This document shows positions 39,024 to 45,944 of a DNA stretch of 64,000 nt, piece after piece. The notes under the pieces are model-generated. The model saw only the letters and a program-made list of their open reading frames with translations. It made no database searches and was not told the origin of the DNA. Source of the stretch: Escherichia phage T2; sequence record NC_054931.1. One strand, 5' to 3'. The stretch's first letter is position 1. The number at the start of each line of letters is the position of its first letter. The position numbers and the translations under genes are program-made.

Positions 39024-41288
39024 TCATAATTTACAGGATGAACAATCTTCAGCTTTTGGAGTTTCTATTTCATAATCATCAGTACCAGAACCATCGCGGG
39101 TATTATGATAATAGAAATTTTTAATGCCATAATACCATCCGTATAACATGTCATCAATCATTATTGACATTGGAACCTTTCCTTTTGGAAAAATCTGCGG
39201 GTCATAATATGTATTCGCTGAAGCTGATTGACATACCCATTTCAGCATAATAGCTACCTGCGTAAGATAAGGTTTATTACCTTTCTTAGCTAATTTCCAT
39301 GTATAATCATATAGGTCTATGTTATGTTCAATATTGGGCACGACTTGATTAAAGGAACCCTCTTTTGATTCTTTAACAGAGACTGGTCCACGTGGAGGCT
39401 CGATACCGTTTGTACTGTTAGAAACTTGGGAAGATGACTCACATGGCATAAGTGCTGATAATGTGCTATTACGGATGCCAAAGAGCTTAAGGTCTTCCCG
39501 CAGCGACGACCAGTCACAAACGTATTTTGGAGCTGCGATTTGGTCAATCTTTTTATTGTACCAGTCGATAGGTAATTCGCCTCGAGACCAACGAGTGTCT
39601 GAATAATATTCACAAGGTCCTTTTTCTTTGGCGAGCTTAATGGATGCTTTAATGAGTCCATACTGTAATCTCTCAAATAGTTCATGTGTTAAATCGTTAG
39701 CATCTTCATAAGAAGCAAAGTTACTTGCCAGCCAAGCTGCATAGTTAGTAACACCTACACCAAGGTTACGACGCTTTTTAGCTTTTTCTGCTTCAGGAAC
39801 TGGATATCCTTGGTAATCCAACAGATTATCAAGAGCACGAACTTGAACTTCTGCCAATTCATTAATTTTATCTTGGTCTTGCCAGTCAAAATTATCTAGT
39901 ACGAATGCAGAGAGAGTACACAATCCAATTTCAGCATCAGGACTATTCACATCATTTGTTGGAATAGCAATTTCACAGCACAAGTTACTCTGACGAATAG
40001 GTGCCTTTTCACGAATAAACGGAGTATAGTTATTCGTATTATCAATGAACTGCACATAAATCCTTGCTGTTCCTGAACGTTCAGTCATGAGCAATTCAAA
40101 TAGTTCACGGGCTTTAATACGCTTTTTACGAATATTAGGGTCTTTTTCTGCTGCTTCGTATAATTCACGGAAACGGTCTTGGTCTTTAAAATAAGAATAA
40201 TACAGCTCTCCACCCATTTCATGCGGACTGAACAAAGTAATGTAATCGTTCTTTCCGAATCGTTCCATCATCAAATCATTCAGTTGAACACCATAATCCA
40301 TATGACGGATGCGGTTTTCTTCTACGCCTTTGTTATTTTTCAAAACGAGAAGATTTTCAACTTCCAAATGCCAAATAGGATAATAAGCAGTAGCAGCGCC
40401 GCCACGAATTCCACCCTGTGAACATGATTTAACAGCAGTCTGAAAATGTTTCCAAAAAGGAATAACACCAGTATGGCGTACTTCACCCATGCCAATCTTA
40501 GAACCTTCGGCACGAATCATACCAACGTTAATTCCAATTCCAGCGCGTTTAGAAATATATTCAACAATTGAAGCAGAAGCTTTATTAATTGACTTTAATG
40601 AATCACCAGCTTCAATAACAACGCATGAACTAAACTGCCGAGTTGGAGTACGGCAACCAGCCATAATAGGAGTTGGCAGTGAAATCTGTCGAGTAGATAC
40701 TGCTTCATAAAAACGAATAACATGTTTTAATCTGTCAACAGGTTCATCTTGATGCAATGCCATTCCAATAGTCATAAATGCAAACTGTGGAGTTTCATAA
40801 ATTTGACCAGTGGTTTTATCTTTAACGAGATATTTTTCTTTTAATTGCATCGCCCCGGAATAAGTAAATTCCATATCCCGCTCGTGCTTAATTTTTGATT
40901 CTAAAAATGTAATTTCTTCTGCAGAATATTTTGACAACAATTCAGGGTCGTATTTACCTTCATTTACACAGTAAGAAATATGGTCAATAAATGAACGCGG
41001 TTCATACTGCCCATAAACATGTTTACGAAGAGCAAACATTAAACAGCGTGCAGCTACATATTGATAATCAGGTTCTTCAACCGAAATAGAATTCGCAGCA
41101 GCCTTAATGACAATAGTCTGAATGTCATCAGTGGTCATTCCATCACGGAGATATGATTTAATATTTTCATATAATTCATAAGGATCTACAGATGTTCCTT
41201 CAGCTGCCCAAGATAAAACTTTAATAATTTTTTGCGGGTCAAAGCTCTGAGAAACACCACTACTTTTGATAACATTAATTAATTGCAT
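39024..41288 (-). CDS. nrdA: ribonucleotide reductase large subunit
   Basis: 754 aa ORF, size as T4 NrdA; C-terminal CSSC thiol motif. Confidence 0.97.
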   Translation of the reverse strand: MQLINVIKSSGVSQSFDPQKIIKVLSWAAEGTSVDPYELYENIKSYLRDGMTTDDIQTIVIKAAANSISVEEPDYQYVAARCLMFALRKHVYGQYEPRSFIDHISYCVNEGKYDPELLSKYSAEEITFLESKIKHERDMEFTYSGAMQLKEKYLVKDKTTGQIYETPQFAFMTIGMALHQDEPVDRLKHVIRFYEAVSTRQISLPTPIMAGCRTPTRQFSSCVVIEAGDSLKSINKASASIVEYISKRAGIGINVGMIRAEGSKIGMGEVRHTGVIPFWKHFQTAVKSCSQGGIRGGAATAYYPIWHLEVENLLVLKNNKGVEENRIRHMDYGVQLNDLMMERFGKNDYITLFSPHEMGGELYYSYFKDQDRFRELYEAAEKDPNIRKKRIKARELFELLMTERSGTARIYVQFIDNTNNYTPFIREKAPIRQSNLCCEIAIPTNDVNSPDAEIGLCTLSAFVLDNFDWQDQDKINELAEVQVRALDNLLDYQGYPVPEAEKAKKRRNLGVGVTNYAAWLASNFASYEDANDLTHELFERLQYGLIKASIKLAKEKGPCEYYSDTRWSRGELPIDWYNKKIDQIAAPKYVCDWSSLREDLKLFGIRNSTLSALMPCESSSQVSNSTNGIEPPRGPVSVKESKEGSFNQVVPNIEHNIDLYDYTWKLAKKGNKPYLTQVAIMLKWVCQSASANTYYDPQIFPKGKVPMSIMIDDMLYGWYYGIKNFYYHNTRDGSGTDDYEIETPKAEDCSSCKL

Positions 41289-41605
41289 AAGTCCTCAACT
41301 TGAAAATCGTCTTTAAACAATCGGTTAACTATATGAGCTATTATATCACCATGACACGGCTTTGGTTTACATGTGCATCCTAGCCTCATTCCACGTAAAG
41401 GCTCTAAATGTTCTTTAGTTATTTCTCCGGATTTAATTCGACGTATAAAATCTTTTTTGAATAATTCAATGGCAGCCTCCCGGCTGCCAGCATCTTTACC
41501 GACGTAATTTCCCCAAAATGTACCACGGTGAATATTAACATCAAAGTCGGATTTATATTTATTCACTACCTGGCATAGACGGCCCGCGCGGCGATAATTC
41601 GTCAT
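41279..41605 (-). CDS. hypothetical Cys/His-motif protein (nrdA.1 position)
   Basis: 108 aa ORF; motif [12 protein letters not shown]. Confidence 0.6.
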
Positions 41606-41834
41606 ATTGTTTTTCCGTTAAAACAGTAATATCATAGTAACAATCTGAAGAAGTTTTAACTGTAGAAATTTTATTATCAAAATACTCACGAGTCATTTTA
41701 TGAGTATAATATTTTTTGCCATAAATGATAATAGGCTGATTTGGTCCTGGAACTTCTAACTCGCTTGGATTAGGAAGTGTAAAAAGAACGACACCAGAAG
41801 TATCTTTAAATCGTAAAATCATATATCCTCGCAA
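41559..41834 (-). CDS. hypothetical protein (nrdA.2 position)
   Basis: 91 aa ORF overlapping the next gene. Confidence 0.5.
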
Positions 41835-41845
41835 TTAAATTAAAA

Positions 41846-42706
41846 TTATACCGCCATCTTTCCTTTAATTGGCGGGTGAGATACATAGTTGTTAAGAACG
41901 AAATCTTTAGGCCTAAGTTTAAGAACATATTTTAATTGTTCTTTAGTAGAAAGATATCGGAATTTATAAGGTAGACCACTTATTACCAGCTCACAAAGCT
42001 CTTTAGGTTCACGACGCAAAATTTCTTTACATTGTTCTACGTGATTCATATAGATATGAGTATTACCGCCAGAAAATATCAAATCTCCAGGAATAAGATT
42101 ACACATCTTAGCTACAATATGAACTAACGCAGCATATGATGCAATATTAAATGGAAGACCAAGAAAAACATCTACTGATCGTTGATACCACTGCAAATCC
42201 AAATAGCCATTACGCACATTAAACTGATAGAACATATGACAAGGCGGTAATGCCATATATTTAAGTTCAGCTGGATTCCACGCAGAAACAATTTGTCGCC
42301 TATCATTCGGCAGTTTTTTAATACGATCAATAACTTCTACAATTTGGTCTACACCGCCAAAATCACGCCACTGTTTTCCATAAATTGGACCAAGTTCACC
42401 GCTATGGTATCCTAAATCTTTTGCTTGATTTTCGTAATTTTCATCCCAGACTGTTTTGCCTTGAATTAATGAATCATGCTGAATTAATCGTAAATCATTG
42501 ACATTTGTGCTTCCTGATAAAAACCAAAGTAGCTCAGCAATGCAAGCTTTCCAGGCGAGCTTTTTAGTTGTTACTGCAGGAAAACCTTTACTTAAATCCC
42601 AGCGTAATTTAGTACCGAACAAAGCAATTGTTCCTGTGCCTGTTCGATCATCGGTTTCATAGCCATTTTCAAAAATGTCTTTAATTAAATCTTGGTATTG
42701 TTTCAT
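41846..42706 (-). CDS. td: thymidylate synthase, uninterrupted
   Basis: 286 aa continuous ORF, size as T4 Td; no intron. Confidence 0.97.
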   Translation of the reverse strand: MKQYQDLIKDIFENGYETDDRTGTGTIALFGTKLRWDLSKGFPAVTTKKLAWKACIAELLWFLSGSTNVNDLRLIQHDSLIQGKTVWDENYENQAKDLGYHSGELGPIYGKQWRDFGGVDQIVEVIDRIKKLPNDRRQIVSAWNPAELKYMALPPCHMFYQFNVRNGYLDLQWYQRSVDVFLGLPFNIASYAALVHIVAKMCNLIPGDLIFSGGNTHIYMNHVEQCKEILRREPKELCELVISGLPYKFRYLSTKEQLKYVLKLRPKDFVLNNYVSHPPIKGKMAV

Positions 42707-42751
42707 TTAGTACCTTATATAAATTATAATACATTTTATGAAGCTAAATAA

Positions 42752-43099
42752 TCAATACGGTTTAGCATCAAATTTTCTTTCGATTTCAGGAGTGAAATAT
42801 AATTCTTTACCGCGTTTAGAAAAGCGACCAATAATATGATAATTATTCTCATCAAACGTAATATTGCCAATATCCATGGCTTTCAACCAAATATCGATAT
42901 TTCTATCCAGTTTTATATCAAAATTCCAATACGGAGAACTATTACCGAAAATACTGCAAGCGGATTCAGTGAAACAACTGCTATAAATCTTGTCTTTAGG
43001 AACTACTAATTGATAGACGCCTTTAATAAACTGAGGACCCTGCCATTTTGGTTGTTTCGCGTCTTTTTCTAATAGAATAGGGTAATAATTAAAGTTCAT
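42752..43099 (-). CDS. hypothetical protein inserted between frd and td
   Basis: Track ORF 42752..43111 (GTG); probable ATG start at MNFNYY (115 aa); no recognisable motif. Confidence 0.55.
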   Translation of the reverse strand: MNFNYYPILLEKDAKQPKWQGPQFIKGVYQLVVPKDKIYSSCFTESACSIFGNSSPYWNFDIKLDRNIDIWLKAMDIGNITFDENNYHIIGRFSKRGKELYFTPEIERKFDAKPY

Positions 43100-43119
43100 A
43101 TTTTCCGCCACGCGTTATT

Positions 43120-43946
<827 letters not shown>

Positions 43947-43956
43947 ATCATCTCCT

Positions 43957-44199
43957 TCAAACAGACTTTTTCACAATTTTCCAATCAGTTTTAAACTGCT
44001 CGACGTCAGAATGGTAAATCCAGAATCCTGCGCTTTCTCCGTCTTCATAAAGAGGACATCCATCGCATTCATCTTCCCATCCCATATCACGTAAAAGATG
44101 TTCAGCTTTTTCAACAAGTTCAGAATCTTTACCGATGATATTAAAATACCATTTACCTCTAACTTCTGAATCTTTGATGCTTTGGCGTTGTAATCTCAT
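43957..44199 (-). CDS. hypothetical protein
   Basis: 80 aa ORF. Confidence 0.55.
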   Translation of the reverse strand: MRLQRQSIKDSEVRGKWYFNIIGKDSELVEKAEHLLRDMGWEDECDGCPLYEDGESAGFWIYHSDVEQFKTDWKIVKKSV

Positions 44200-44253
44200 T
44201 TTATTCTCCTTAGTTGATAGGGTAATAGTATCACACTACTACCCTTCTGTAAA

Positions 44254-44619
44254 CTACTTTTTGAAAGTTTTTCGCAAAAGTTCAATGATTTCATCTACAT
44301 TGTTTTCGTCTACAATGCAGTGAATTTTTGTTACGCCAGAAACCTTGTCTTCGATTTCATCTTCTTCAGAAGTCTGTTCTTTATACTCACGAAAACAATG
44401 AAATTCATCTTCACAAATGTTAAAGTAAAAATGCTTTCCATTTGCGCATTCAATGTGTTTTATTGCTCTAAATCCATCAACAAAGAAAGTTTCTTTAACT
44501 TCAAACCACCCGCCATTTTCTTCAATAATTTTAACTATTGATGAATTAGAACGTGGGCGATAATTAATAAATGTATCAATAAGTCTTGGAACAAGTTCAT
44601 ACTTTTTGCCAATATACAT
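44254..44619 (-). CDS. hypothetical protein
   Basis: 121 aa ORF. Confidence 0.55.
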   Translation of the reverse strand: MYIGKKYELVPRLIDTFINYRPRSNSSIVKIIEENGGWFEVKETFFVDGFRAIKHIECANGKHFYFNICEDEFHCFREYKEQTSEEDEIEDKVSGVTKIHCIVDENNVDEIIELLRKTFKK

Positions 44620-44663
44620 TACGTTTTCCTCATTTTAACGGGGCTGTAATAGCCCCTTGATAA

Positions 44664-44891
44664 TTATTGTTCAATCAGTCCCATGTAAAATTCTGCGTCT
44701 TCAGAATCCATACCATCGCAATATTCATTAGCCATAAAGCGGGTGAGGTCTTCAAGAGGACCTTCAATAACGATTTGAATACTCCAAAACTTAGAATCTT
44801 GCACGCTTGTGATACTAAGTTCAGGATAACGATTACGAATAATTTCTTCAATATATTCAAAATCAACGATGTCAATATCAACTTTAGCCAT
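44664..44891 (-). CDS. hypothetical acidic protein
   Basis: Track ORF 44664..44954; start moved to MAKVDIDIV after AGAGGAAAA RBS; early promoter upstream. Confidence 0.5.
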
Positions 44892-44929
44892 ATTATTTTC
44901 CTCTTTAATCATCAGCAGTATTGCCGATA

Positions 44930-44995
44930 GTTGTATAGTACCATGGAAGGACAAGGATGTAAACCGTTTTGTGAAAAATTTTTGAAATAAAAAAG
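44930..44995 (-). promoter_or_regulatory. early promoter with UP element (upstream of ORF 44664..44891)
   Basis: Minus strand AAAAATTTTTCACAAAACGGTTTACA then TACTAT; near-identical to the motA promoter element. Confidence 0.55.
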
Positions 44996-45016
44996 GGGAC
45001 CCTAGAGGTCCCCAAT
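44988..45016 (-). terminator. hairpin terminator after gene 32
   Basis: GGGGACC-TCTA-GGGTCCCC followed by a T-run on the minus strand. Confidence 0.6.
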
Positions 45017-45035
45017 TAATTAGTAATATAATCTA

Positions 45036-45944
45036 TTAAAGGTCATTCAAAAGGTCATCCAGGTCCGTGTCATCAGCACTAGATGAACTGCCAGAGCTTG
45101 AGCTCATAAAATCATCTTCAGTTTTTGTATTGAAGTCATCAACATTGAATGCATCCAAATCATCAGCAACTTTATCAGCTTTCTTAGCAGCAGTCGCTGC
45201 GGCACCACCCATAGCAGCAGTTCCCATAACTTGACTAAACTTAGTGCTCAGTTCTTCGAACGATTTGAATTTATCTTTAGAAGTCATTTCAGAAAGGTCA
45301 ACCATTTGTTCGAACAGTTCTTTCTGGAAAGATTCATCGTCAATGTTTGGAATCGCAGATTGATTCAGGAATTTAGATTCGTCGTAGTTACTAAATCCGG
45401 AAACTTGTTTAACTTTCAGTACAAAGTTAGCACCTTCCCACGGACAAGTTACATCAACCGGAGTTTCACCCATTTCAACATCAACTGCAATCATTGCATT
45501 GATTTTATCCCAGATTTTCTTACCGAAACGGTATTTAAATACTTTACCTTCGTTTTCTGGAGCAGCTGGATCTTTTACTACAAGAATGTTAGCCCAGTAA
45601 GAAGTTTTACGTTTAACAAGACCGTACTCTTTATTGTCAGTGTTGTACAAATCATTTTTACTGATGTACTGACATACTGGACAAGAATCGTAATCACCGT
45701 GGGTAGATGAGCAATTTTCGATATACCATTTACCGTTTTTCTTGAAACCGTGATTTACAAGAATTGCAAATGGTGCTTGTTCATCATTTTTAGACGGAAG
45801 AAAACGAATTACTGCTTGACCGTTACCCGCATTATCGAGTTTCAGTTTCCACTCGCCTTTATCTTCAGAAGAAAAACCACCTTTATTTCCAGCCAGTTTA
45901 GCCATTTGTGCAGCGAGTTCAGCAGTAGATTTACGTTTAAACAT
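45036..45944 (-). CDS. 32: single-stranded DNA-binding protein
   Basis: 302 aa ORF, sequence as T4 gp32; autoregulatory pseudoknot in the 5' leader. Confidence 0.97.

What the first reader, a model, noticed from the sequence alone, without database searches (positions are those of the whole stretch)
42752..43111. Extra ORF inserted at the frd-td junction
In T4 the frd stop and td start overlap, as I recall the published sequence. Here a 115-119 aa ORF (MAENMNFNYYPILLEKDAKQPKWQGPQFIKGVYQLVVPKDKIY...) sits between them, 8 nt after frd and 45 nt before td, co-oriented with both. It shows no motif I recognise (not GIY-YIG, HNH or LAGLIDADG) and is the clearest candidate accessory cargo in an otherwise conserved operon.
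Basis: partly seen in the sequence, partly recalled or inferred. Interest (0 to 1): 0.55.

Follow-up and report, generated by a model that had tools for sequence, protein, structure and literature searches.

The report
Small accessory gene between frd and td
Phage T2 carries a real but uncharacterised 115-residue gene wedged between its dihydrofolate reductase and thymidylate synthase genes, which phage T4 lacks; hundreds of sequenced relatives already carry and annotate it, so it is a tidy example of gene insertion rather than a discovery.

Summary
The window is phage T2 (100% identity to T2 records). The ORF is real. It lies on the minus strand at 42752-43111, 8 nt after frd and 45 nt before td. 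The conserved start is ATG 43099, giving 115 aa, not GTG 43111. T4 has a 4-nt frd/td overlap and no family member anywhere in its genome. The gene is under strong purifying selection (dN/dS 0.03-0.15). GenBank already annotates it as a hypothetical protein (RB32ORF229c; PHROG 1928), and about 360 Tequatrovirus records carry it. Diverged homologues, in one to three tandem copies, sit directly after frd and before td in 30 of 31 loci from at least eight T4-like genera. RB69, Bp7 and VR7 share T4's overlapped junction. In T2 the 408-bp insert is bracketed by a 9-bp duplication (TAAATGAAA) of that junction. No homing-endonuclease or other Pfam, NCBIfam, PADLOC or PDB-sequence match exists. A confident AlphaFold model (pLDDT 88) shows an OB-like small beta-barrel with no significant structural neighbour. 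Function is unknown; most likely it is a dispensable, non-enzymatic binding protein. Interest is low to moderate.

The parts
42752..43099 (-). Coding sequence of the accessory gene (115 aa plus stop), equal to RB32ORF229c / PHROG 1928. It is the 'short' subfamily of the frd-td spacer family.
   Evidence: ORF listing. T2 GenBank annotation. Homologues align from this Met. dN/dS 0.03-0.15. PHROG 1928, E 9.5e-36.
43100..43111 (-). Leader containing the non-conserved in-frame GTG (43109-43111) and the SD-like GGCGG (43105-43109), which lies 5 nt before the ATG.
   Evidence: Sequence. Comparison of six Tequatrovirus orthologues. Weak resemblance to the frd 3' end of the L020/L021 lineage.
43118..43126 (-). 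Left copy of the 9-bp direct repeat TAAATGAAA. It holds the last frd codon, the TGA stop and AA, leaving a fossil 'ATGAAA' td-type start.
   Evidence: T2/T4 alignment. Repeat positions 417 bp apart. Junction comparison.
42701..42709 (-). Right copy of the 9-bp direct repeat TAAATGAAA: TAA, then the td ATG and AAA.
42710..43117 (-). The 408-bp segment present in T2-type phages and absent from T4, RB69, Bp7 and VR7. With one repeat copy the indel is 417 bp.
   Evidence: (two-piece hits span 716-720 nt against 300 nt for T4-type).
42707..42751 (-). 45-nt spacer between the ORF and td, 15.6% G+C. It has the td SD (AAGG) and promoter-like hexamers: TTGATT, 18 nt, TATTAT.
   Evidence: There is no significant RNA structure. 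F2 lacks 32 nt of it.
43120..43701 (-). frd (dihydrofolate reductase), the upstream neighbour in the same transcription unit.
   Evidence: Pfam DHFR_1. Annotation.
41846..42706 (-). td (thymidylate synthase, intronless in T2), the downstream neighbour.
   Evidence: Pfam Thymidylat_synt, E 4.8e-96. Annotation.

Best explanation
SHOWN: This is a genuine protein-coding gene of phage T2, 115 aa from ATG 43099. It belongs to a small family found only in T4-like phages (Straboviridae). The family's normal place is the slot between frd and td, where it occurs in one to three tandem, strongly diverged copies. There is no terminator between frd, this gene and td. The gene is dispensable: T4 and the genera represented by RB69, Bp7 and VR7 lack it.

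INFERRED (evolution): In the E. coli T-even clade the ancestral state is the ATGA-overlapped frd/td junction. A Tequatrovirus ancestor then gained one copy by illegitimate recombination with another T4-like phage. The closest known copies, 63-66% identical, are in metagenomic contigs with a frd / short copy / long copy gene order, followed in the one contig that extends far enough (L020) by a 69-aa ORF and td. Because the frd stop and the td start overlap, only an event that duplicated the overlap could keep both genes. That explains the 9-bp TAAATGAAA repeat on both sides of the insert. T4-type phages either never received the insert or lost it again by deletion between the repeats.

INFERRED (mechanism, low confidence): The gene is co-transcribed with frd and td as a pre-replicative gene. 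The product is a soluble, mildly basic, aromatic-rich single-domain beta-barrel with OB-like strand order and no catalytic motif. The conserved residues (Q16, W19, G27, Y29, G91-R92-F93-x-K95-x-G97) lie in the beta1-beta2 loop, beta2 and the beta4-beta5 hairpin. That is the face OB folds use to bind ligands. So it most likely acts by binding a macromolecule (a nucleic acid or a protein). I think it is most likely a condition-specific accessory factor, for host takeover or counter-defence, rather than an enzyme of thymidylate synthesis.
For: Identity and reality: 100% match to T2; annotation as a hypothetical protein; dN/dS 0.03-0.15; 579 phage records with homologues.

Family and synteny: an exhaustive HMM search of 1.84 billion representative proteins gives only 44 hits. 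The roughly 40 genuine ones are stand-alone proteins of 95-139 aa. The three long hits are PEGA and YadA repeat proteins, so they are spurious. Family members lie directly after frd and before td in 30 of 31 loci, with 1-3 tandem copies. None were found in 185,579 bacterial and archaeal species genomes.

Insertion: T4, RB69, Bp7 and VR7 share the junction GT(A/G)TA(T/C)AAATGAAA. T2 has TAAATGAAA twice, 417 bp apart, in register with that junction. Five of the six Tequatrovirus orthologues checked have the full 9-mer on both sides; F2 keeps 8 of 9 nt on the left. The T2 protein is 63% identical to the L020 copy although Frd is only 47% identical. In the other genera the ORF (28-45%) is less conserved than Frd (44-55%).

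Dispensability: the whole T4 genome has no family member.

Operon: the only terminator-like site in 41700-45100 is downstream of gene 32. In other genera the start overlaps the frd stop.

Against: The direction of the indel is inferred by parsimony plus the repeat footprint, not proven. Another 9-bp repeat occurs by chance in the same 531 nt. 'TAA' before ATG occurs at 6 of 57 long-ORF starts. I estimate about 1% for the in-register repeat arising without a duplication, and that figure is rough. Recurrent precise deletion between the repeats could mimic the pattern.

The donor lineage is only suggested: 63-66% identity is not a recent transfer, and the leader similarity is weak.

Confidence: 0.55

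Rival explanations
1. Ancestral retention. The frd-ORF-td arrangement is ancestral for the E. coli T-even clade too. T4-type phages, Mosigvirus, Dhakavirus and Gaprivervirus each lost the gene by deletion between short repeats at the two start-codon contexts.
For: The family occupies this slot in many distant genera, so presence is ancestral at the subfamily level. In phage Moon, frd overlaps the ORF start with the same AAATGA motif. A deletion from the ORF ATG to the td ATG would therefore produce a T4-like junction directly. From my own knowledge, deletions between short direct repeats are classical in T4. The 9-bp repeats in T2 would promote recurrent identical deletions.
Against: It needs at least four independent losses that all give the same in-register junction, against one gain. 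It does not explain why T2 carries a fossil 'ATGAAA' after the frd stop and 'TAA' before the td ATG. It does not explain why the T2 copy is closer to the L020 lineage (63%) than Frd is (47%). T2-type phages carry one short copy, while the closest relatives carry a short copy, a long copy and (in L020 and CIP9) a 68-69 aa ORF.
Confidence: 0.2
2. Functional partner of the DHFR-TS pair. The protein is a non-enzymatic adaptor or regulator of the phage dNTP-synthesis machinery. For example, it might tether or modulate Frd and/or Td, or bind frd-td mRNA. Its position would reflect function rather than a permissive slot.
For: The position immediately after frd holds in 30 of 31 loci, across genera where Frd is only 44-55% identical. 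The start overlaps the frd stop in most genera, which suggests translational coupling and matched dosage. Purifying selection is strong. The model is a small OB-like binding module.
Against: T4, RB69, Bp7 and VR7 run the same pathway without it. Copy number varies from 0 to 3, and paralogues are only 20-30% identical, which is unusual for a stoichiometric subunit. T4-like genomes are syntenic in general, and other small ORFs of unknown role are equally syntenic here. In some lineages the slot also holds unrelated small ORFs.
Confidence: 0.25
3. Mobile-element cargo. The ORF would be, or would be a remnant of, a free-standing homing endonuclease or transposable cassette, and the 9-bp repeat would be a target-site duplication.
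For: A direct 9-bp repeat flanks the insert. The region is rich in homing endonucleases in T-even phages: I-TevI, SegG and MobE in T4.
Against: No nuclease or transposase domain appears in Pfam, NCBIfam or PHROGs. The 115-aa beta-barrel has no catalytic motif. The family is never found elsewhere in genomes, only in the frd-td slot, and there is one copy per 64-kb window. The gene's presence is independent of the td intron and I-TevI: PST and RB3 have both, T2 has only the ORF.
Confidence: 0.02
4. A spurious ORF, meaning a non-coding spacer that happens to be open.
For: AT-rich phage DNA throws up many short ORFs. The 2003 T2 record AY310907 left the 413-nt gap unannotated.
Against: dN/dS is 0.03-0.15 with dS up to 0.97. 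Homologues down to 20-30% identity have invariant W19, G91, K95 and G97. The AF2 fold is confident. An SD-like sequence lies upstream of the ATG and is nearly invariant among the orthologues.
Confidence: 0.01

Closest known systems
RB32ORF229c-type hypothetical proteins of Tequatrovirus (PHROG 1928)
   Same: It is the same gene. The T2 records are 100% identical at the DNA level. About 360 Tequatrovirus records carry a copy at 90-100% amino-acid identity in the same position. The HMM match to PHROG 1928 has E 9.5e-36.
   Different: Nothing differs. The family has no assigned function. A few records label it 'glucose-1-phosphate adenylyltransferase', which no profile supports.
The 'long' paralogue: the second ORF between frd and td in Winklervirus, Kagamiyamavirus, Gelderlandvirus, Moonvirus, Kanagawavirus and metagenomic T4-likes
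   Same: It is the same family by HMM (E 1e-17 to 1e-26). It shares the conserved W, G-[IV]-Y and G-R-F-x-K-x-G motifs, the same slot and the same strand.
   Different: In its most diverged members (P0028-P0049) it carries an insert of roughly 15-25 residues (P-[TS]-I-x-E-Y-x-x-N-P) after the conserved Trp. It is only about 20-30% identical to the T2 protein. T2 has no copy of it.
T4 frd/td overlapping junction (ATGA). From my own knowledge this was described by Purohit & Mathews, J Biol Chem 1984; that citation was not checked here.
   Same: The flanking sequence is 98% identical right up to the 9-bp repeat, and the frd C-terminus (VYK*) and td N-terminus (MKQY) are the same.
   Different: T2-type phages have 417 extra bp, made of the 408-bp insert and one duplicated copy of the 9-bp junction.
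OB-fold binding domains (HIN, RPA14/32, Teb1, RecO N-domain, S1, Stn1/Ten1)
Other small syntenic ORFs of the T-even nucleotide-metabolism cluster (frd.1/DUF5417, frd.2, frd.3, nrdA.1/DUF4326, nrdA.2/DUF5496)
   Same: They are short genes of unknown function, co-oriented in the same operon and variably present among T4-like phages.
   Different: They are unrelated in sequence: the family HMM hits only one ORF in the 64-kb window. Unlike those genes, this one is absent from T4 itself.

Membership tests
PHROG 1928 / RB32ORF229c family (frd-td spacer protein) | Significant full-length match to the family profile | tested here: met
   phrog_1928: E 9.5e-36, residues 8-115 against profile positions 2-125 of 126. 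My own family HMM: E 5e-32.
PHROG 1928 / RB32ORF229c family (frd-td spacer protein) | Location directly downstream of frd and upstream of td on the same strand | tested here: met
   Window coordinates. 30 of 31 related loci show the same arrangement.
Homing endonucleases (GIY-YIG, HNH, LAGLIDADG) | Presence of the catalytic motif or domain | tested here: not met
   No Pfam, NCBIfam or PHROG nuclease hit at E up to 1. The conserved 'G-[IV]-Y' is not followed by a YIG, Arg or Glu pattern. The model is an all-beta barrel with one helix.
OB-fold nucleic-acid-binding superfamily | Five-stranded barrel with beta1-beta2-beta3-alpha-beta4-beta5 order | tested here: inconclusive
   The DSSP element order fits. 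I could not inspect barrel closure in coordinates.
OB-fold nucleic-acid-binding superfamily | Significant structural similarity to solved OB domains | tested here: not met
OB-fold nucleic-acid-binding superfamily | Binding of ssDNA, RNA or oligonucleotide | not testable with these tools
   Needs EMSA or fluorescence anisotropy with purified protein.
Cold-shock domain (CSD) | Profile similarity, including the RNP1 and RNP2 motifs | tested here: not met
   hhalign of the 40-sequence family profile against E. coli CspA: probability 0.3%, 8 aligned columns. No Pfam CSD hit.
T4-type dNTP synthetase complex component | Physical association with Frd, Td, NrdAB, gp42 or gp32 | not testable with these tools
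   Only genomic linkage is available.
Known anti-phage defence system proteins (PADLOC) | Match to a defence-system profile | tested here: not met
   No PADLOC hits for the T2 protein or three diverged homologues at E up to 1.
Known anti-defence proteins | Homology to a characterised anti-defence family, or a counter-defence phenotype | not tested
   No anti-defence library was available. Literature searches found no mention of this gene.

The most novel reading that the evidence does not exclude
The frd-td spacer family (0-3 tandem copies, confident OB-like fold with no significant PDB neighbour, restricted to T4-like phages) would be a new class of small binding protein with a defined role. 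One possibility is a dedicated non-enzymatic partner or regulator of the phage DHFR-thymidylate synthase pair. The other is a counter-defence or host-takeover factor whose gain, loss and duplication track host range. The T2/T4 difference would then give a natural knockout/knock-in pair to test it.
Probability: 0.25. Interest if true: 0.55.

Novelty: already known. Interest (0 to 1): 0.3.

Why it matters
The gene is already in the databases as a hypothetical protein, so the value is modest and of two kinds.

First, the locus records clearly how a gene can be inserted between two overlapping genes. The overlap (frd stop and td start, TAAATGAAA) had to be duplicated, and the duplicate is still there. 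Comparison with RB69, Bp7, VR7 and T4 polarises the event. This shows exchange of accessory genes between T4-like genera at the same slot.

Second, the family is conserved and under purifying selection, yet it is dispensable and variable in copy number. It has a confidently predicted fold with no significant structural neighbour. T2 (present) and T4 (absent) are otherwise 95-98% identical here. That makes a ready experimental pair to ask what the protein does.

Tried and rejected
- **Known domains.** Pfam, NCBIfam and PADLOC scans of the T2 protein and diverged homologues found nothing.
- **PDB by sequence profile.** Only noise, E at least 0.065.
- **Cold-shock-domain idea.** I raised it from the K-W...K-G-x-Y pattern; hhalign rejected it.
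- **Domain fusions.** The three long HMM hits are PEGA and YadA repeat proteins, so they are spurious.
- **Bacterial or prophage homologues.** None were found in genome contigs, though that search is pattern-limited. The full 40-sequence alignment was too diverged for the search for related loci.
- **Literature.** No paper mentions RB32ORF229c, ORF229c or phrog_1928. The accessory-gene screen paper I could search does not mention frd, td or this gene; the look-up in the second was rejected. General searches gave nothing relevant.
- **RNA element in the region.** There is only a sub-threshold chance hit to a Drosophila lncRNA model. The spacer fold is not unusual, z -1.2.
- **Promoter scan.** Promoter-like sites are not enriched over shuffles (18 found against 14.9 +/- 4.6), so the spacer 'promoter' is only a consensus match.
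- **My first reading.** I first read T4 as simply having deleted an ancestral gene. I revised this after RB69, Bp7 and VR7 proved to share T4's junction.

Full report

The 1.95-kb stretch around the finding is 100% identical to several complete phage T2 genomes, so the window is T2. All genes here run on the minus strand:

| Gene | Window coordinates |
|---|---|
| gene 32 | 45036-45944 |
| frd.3, frd.2, frd.1 | between gene 32 and the 81-aa ORF |
| 81-aa ORF | 43701-43946 |
| frd | 43120-43701 |
| the ORF in question | 42752-43111 |
| td (intronless) | 41846-42706 |
| nrdA.2, nrdA.1, nrdA | downstream of td |

The one correction concerns the start codon. All homologues align from the internal Met. 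The upstream GTG is CTG in phage F2 and out of frame in SfPhi01. Every T2-like GenBank record annotates 115 aa from ATG 43099. An SD-like GGCGG lies 5 nt before that ATG and is conserved in 5 of the 6 orthologues (GCCGG in RB33).

**Is it a real gene?**

Yes. Nei-Gojobori dN/dS among five equal-length Tequatrovirus orthologues (T2, F2, RB33, SfPhi01, PhiZZ6) is 0.03-0.15, with dS up to 0.97. tblastn finds homologues in 579 phage records. Of these, 361 are at least 90% identical (Tequatrovirus) and 218 are below 60% (other genera).

An exhaustive HMMER search of 1.84 billion representative proteins finds only 44 hits. The genuine ones are all stand-alone proteins of 95-139 aa. W19, G91, K95 and G97 are invariant, and Q16, G27, Y29, F93 and F102 are nearly so. 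The three long hits are PEGA or YadA repeat proteins and are spurious.

The gene is already annotated as a hypothetical protein ('RB32ORF229c') and belongs to PHROG 1928, function unknown. The 2003 partial T2 record left the gap unannotated. I found no paper that mentions the gene.

In T4, frd (145109-145690) and td (starting at 145112) overlap by 4 nt, with nothing between them. I also translated a complete T4 genome in six frames, giving 1438 segments, and searched it with the family HMM. The best E-value is 0.39, so T4 has no member anywhere.

**Where the family lives**

In seven other Tevenvirinae genera the homologue lies immediately after frd and before td: Kanagawavirus (CIP9), Jiaodavirus (Mineola), Gelderlandvirus (CGG4-1), Moonvirus (Moon), Winklervirus (CHI14), Kagamiyamavirus (EcS1) and a Yersinia MHG19-like contig. 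The same holds in diverged metagenomic T4-like contigs. The start usually overlaps the frd stop.

A second ORF in that slot is a diverged paralogue. Its most diverged members carry an insert of roughly 15-25 residues. Some contigs carry three tandem copies.

Across all the loci I fetched, 30 of 31 show frd, then 1-3 family members, then td, all on one strand. The exception ends at the contig edge. A pattern-limited scan of 185,579 bacterial and archaeal species genomes found no relative. So the slot between DHFR and thymidylate synthase is this family's normal home.

**Insertion or deletion?**

Aligning T2 with T4 shows identical flanks up to a 9-bp direct repeat, TAAATGAAA, present on both sides of the T2 segment and 417 bp apart.
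- The left copy is the end of frd (T AAA TGA) plus AA.
- The right copy is TAA plus the td ATG AAA.
- T4 has exactly one copy.

I first read this as a T4 deletion. But RB69 (Mosigvirus), Bp7 (Dhakavirus) and VR7 (Gaprivervirus) are the genera closest to Tequatrovirus, and all have the same 4-nt overlap. Their junction is GT(A/G)TA(T/C)AAATGAAA.

One gain in a Tequatrovirus ancestor is more parsimonious than four or more identical losses. A gain also explains the repeat. The frd stop and the td start overlap, so an insertion keeps both genes only if the overlap is duplicated.

Five of the six Tequatrovirus orthologues examined carry the full repeat. The most divergent, F2 (dS about 0.9 against T2), keeps 8 of 9 nt in the left copy. 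The event is therefore old.

Two further observations fit a foreign origin.
- The T2 protein is 63% identical to a metagenomic lineage (L020) whose Frd is only 47% identical. In every other genus the ORF (28-45%) is less conserved than Frd (44-55%).
- The leader upstream of the ATG weakly resembles the frd 3' end of that lineage.

There are caveats. A second 9-bp repeat occurs by chance in the same 531 nt. 'TAA' before ATG is seen at 6 of 57 gene starts. My estimate of about 1% for a chance in-register repeat is rough. Recurrent deletion between the repeats remains possible. I give insertion about 0.7 and retention about 0.2.

About 361 of roughly 510 Tequatrovirus-level records carry the gene. 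Its presence is independent of the td intron and I-TevI.

**What the protein is**

There is no Pfam, NCBIfam or PADLOC domain and no PDB sequence relative. In particular there is no GIY-YIG, HNH or LAGLIDADG motif.

AlphaFold2 with a 40-sequence alignment gives a confident model, with pLDDT 88.0 and pTM 0.81. The elements are:

| Element | Residues |
|---|---|
| beta | 6-12 |
| beta | 27-34 |
| beta | 62-64 |
| helix | 68-77 |
| beta | 80-82 |
| beta | 86-96 |
| beta | 99-104 |

The family is mildly basic (median pI 8.6) and the T2 protein is 17% aromatic. The conserved residues fall in the beta1-beta2 loop, beta2 and the beta4-beta5 hairpin. In OB folds these form the ligand-binding face. This placement is inferred from the order of elements, not from coordinates.

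**How it most likely works**

Shown: there is no terminator-like site between frd, the ORF and td. In other genera the ORF start overlaps the frd stop.

From established knowledge of T4, frd and td are pre-replicative genes. I therefore infer that the ORF is made early, together with them.

The absence of catalytic motifs and the small barrel point to a binding protein. Several features resemble phage accessory, host-interaction genes more than a stoichiometric metabolic subunit:
- it is dispensable;
- it shows presence/absence polymorphism within a genus;
- copy number ranges from 0 to 3;
- the paralogues are deeply diverged.

I therefore rank 'condition-specific accessory binder' (about 0.4) above 'adaptor or regulator of the DHFR/TS arm of dNTP synthesis' (about 0.25). 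The tight linkage to frd keeps the second reading alive. Neither can be tested with these tools.

**Verdict**

The gene is an already annotated, widespread hypothetical protein, and its slot is its family's usual home. The useful additions are four:
- the corrected start codon;
- the 9-bp duplication footprint, with outgroup polarity that supports insertion;
- the tandem-paralogue family structure;
- a confident OB-like model with no significant structural neighbour.

Interest is low to moderate, at 0.3.

Noticed in passing
window 43701-43946 (-): An 81-aa ORF (RB32ORF231c) between frd.1 and frd is a second T2-versus-T4 difference flanking frd. T4 has only a 71-nt gap there, while Gaprivervirus VR7 has a homologue, VR7ORF250c. 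It has no Pfam or NCBIfam match.
   Followed up: partly
window 42707-42751 (-): The 45-nt ORF-td spacer is 15.6% G+C. It holds sigma-70-like hexamers (TTGATT, 18 nt, TATTAT) and a TTAGCTTCA that resembles a MotA box. Phage F2 lacks 32 nt of it. Promoter-like sites are not enriched over shuffles, and the RNA fold is unremarkable.
   Followed up: partly
window 41846-42706 (-), and L001 compared with L002: T2 td is intronless (no I-TevI). T2 also lacks mobE and nrdB.1 between nrdA and nrdB, and segG next to gene 32, all of which T4 has. These are the classical T2/T4 homing-endonuclease differences.
   Followed up: no
L010 (phage F2) 106-723 and 713-1060: In F2 a 2-nt difference at the junction extends frd by 12 codons, so it overlaps the ORF start by 11 nt. 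The fossil 'ATGAAA' is read through as coding sequence.
   Followed up: partly
L015 3579-4402; L016 3541-4602: Metagenomic T4-like contigs carry two or three tandem family copies after frd, plus further unrelated small ORFs before td (up to five ORFs in the slot). This marks the frd-td junction as a hyperplastic spot.
   Followed up: partly
GenBank MN580668 (pSe_SNUABM_01) and OR125554 (BW-1), hits H42 and H53: These records label the orthologue 'putative glucose-1-phosphate adenylyltransferase'. No profile library supports that name, so it looks like an annotation error.
   Followed up: partly
L017 4001-4420: One long-subfamily member (P0034) lies after NadR-like and PnuC-like (NMN transporter) genes, with no frd in the 4 kb upstream. 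The contig ends right after it, so it is unclear whether this is a true exception to the frd-td rule.
   Followed up: no
window 41279-41834 (-): nrdA.1 (DUF4326) and nrdA.2 (DUF5496) lie between td and nrdA, as in T4. Both are conserved domains of unknown function.
   Followed up: no
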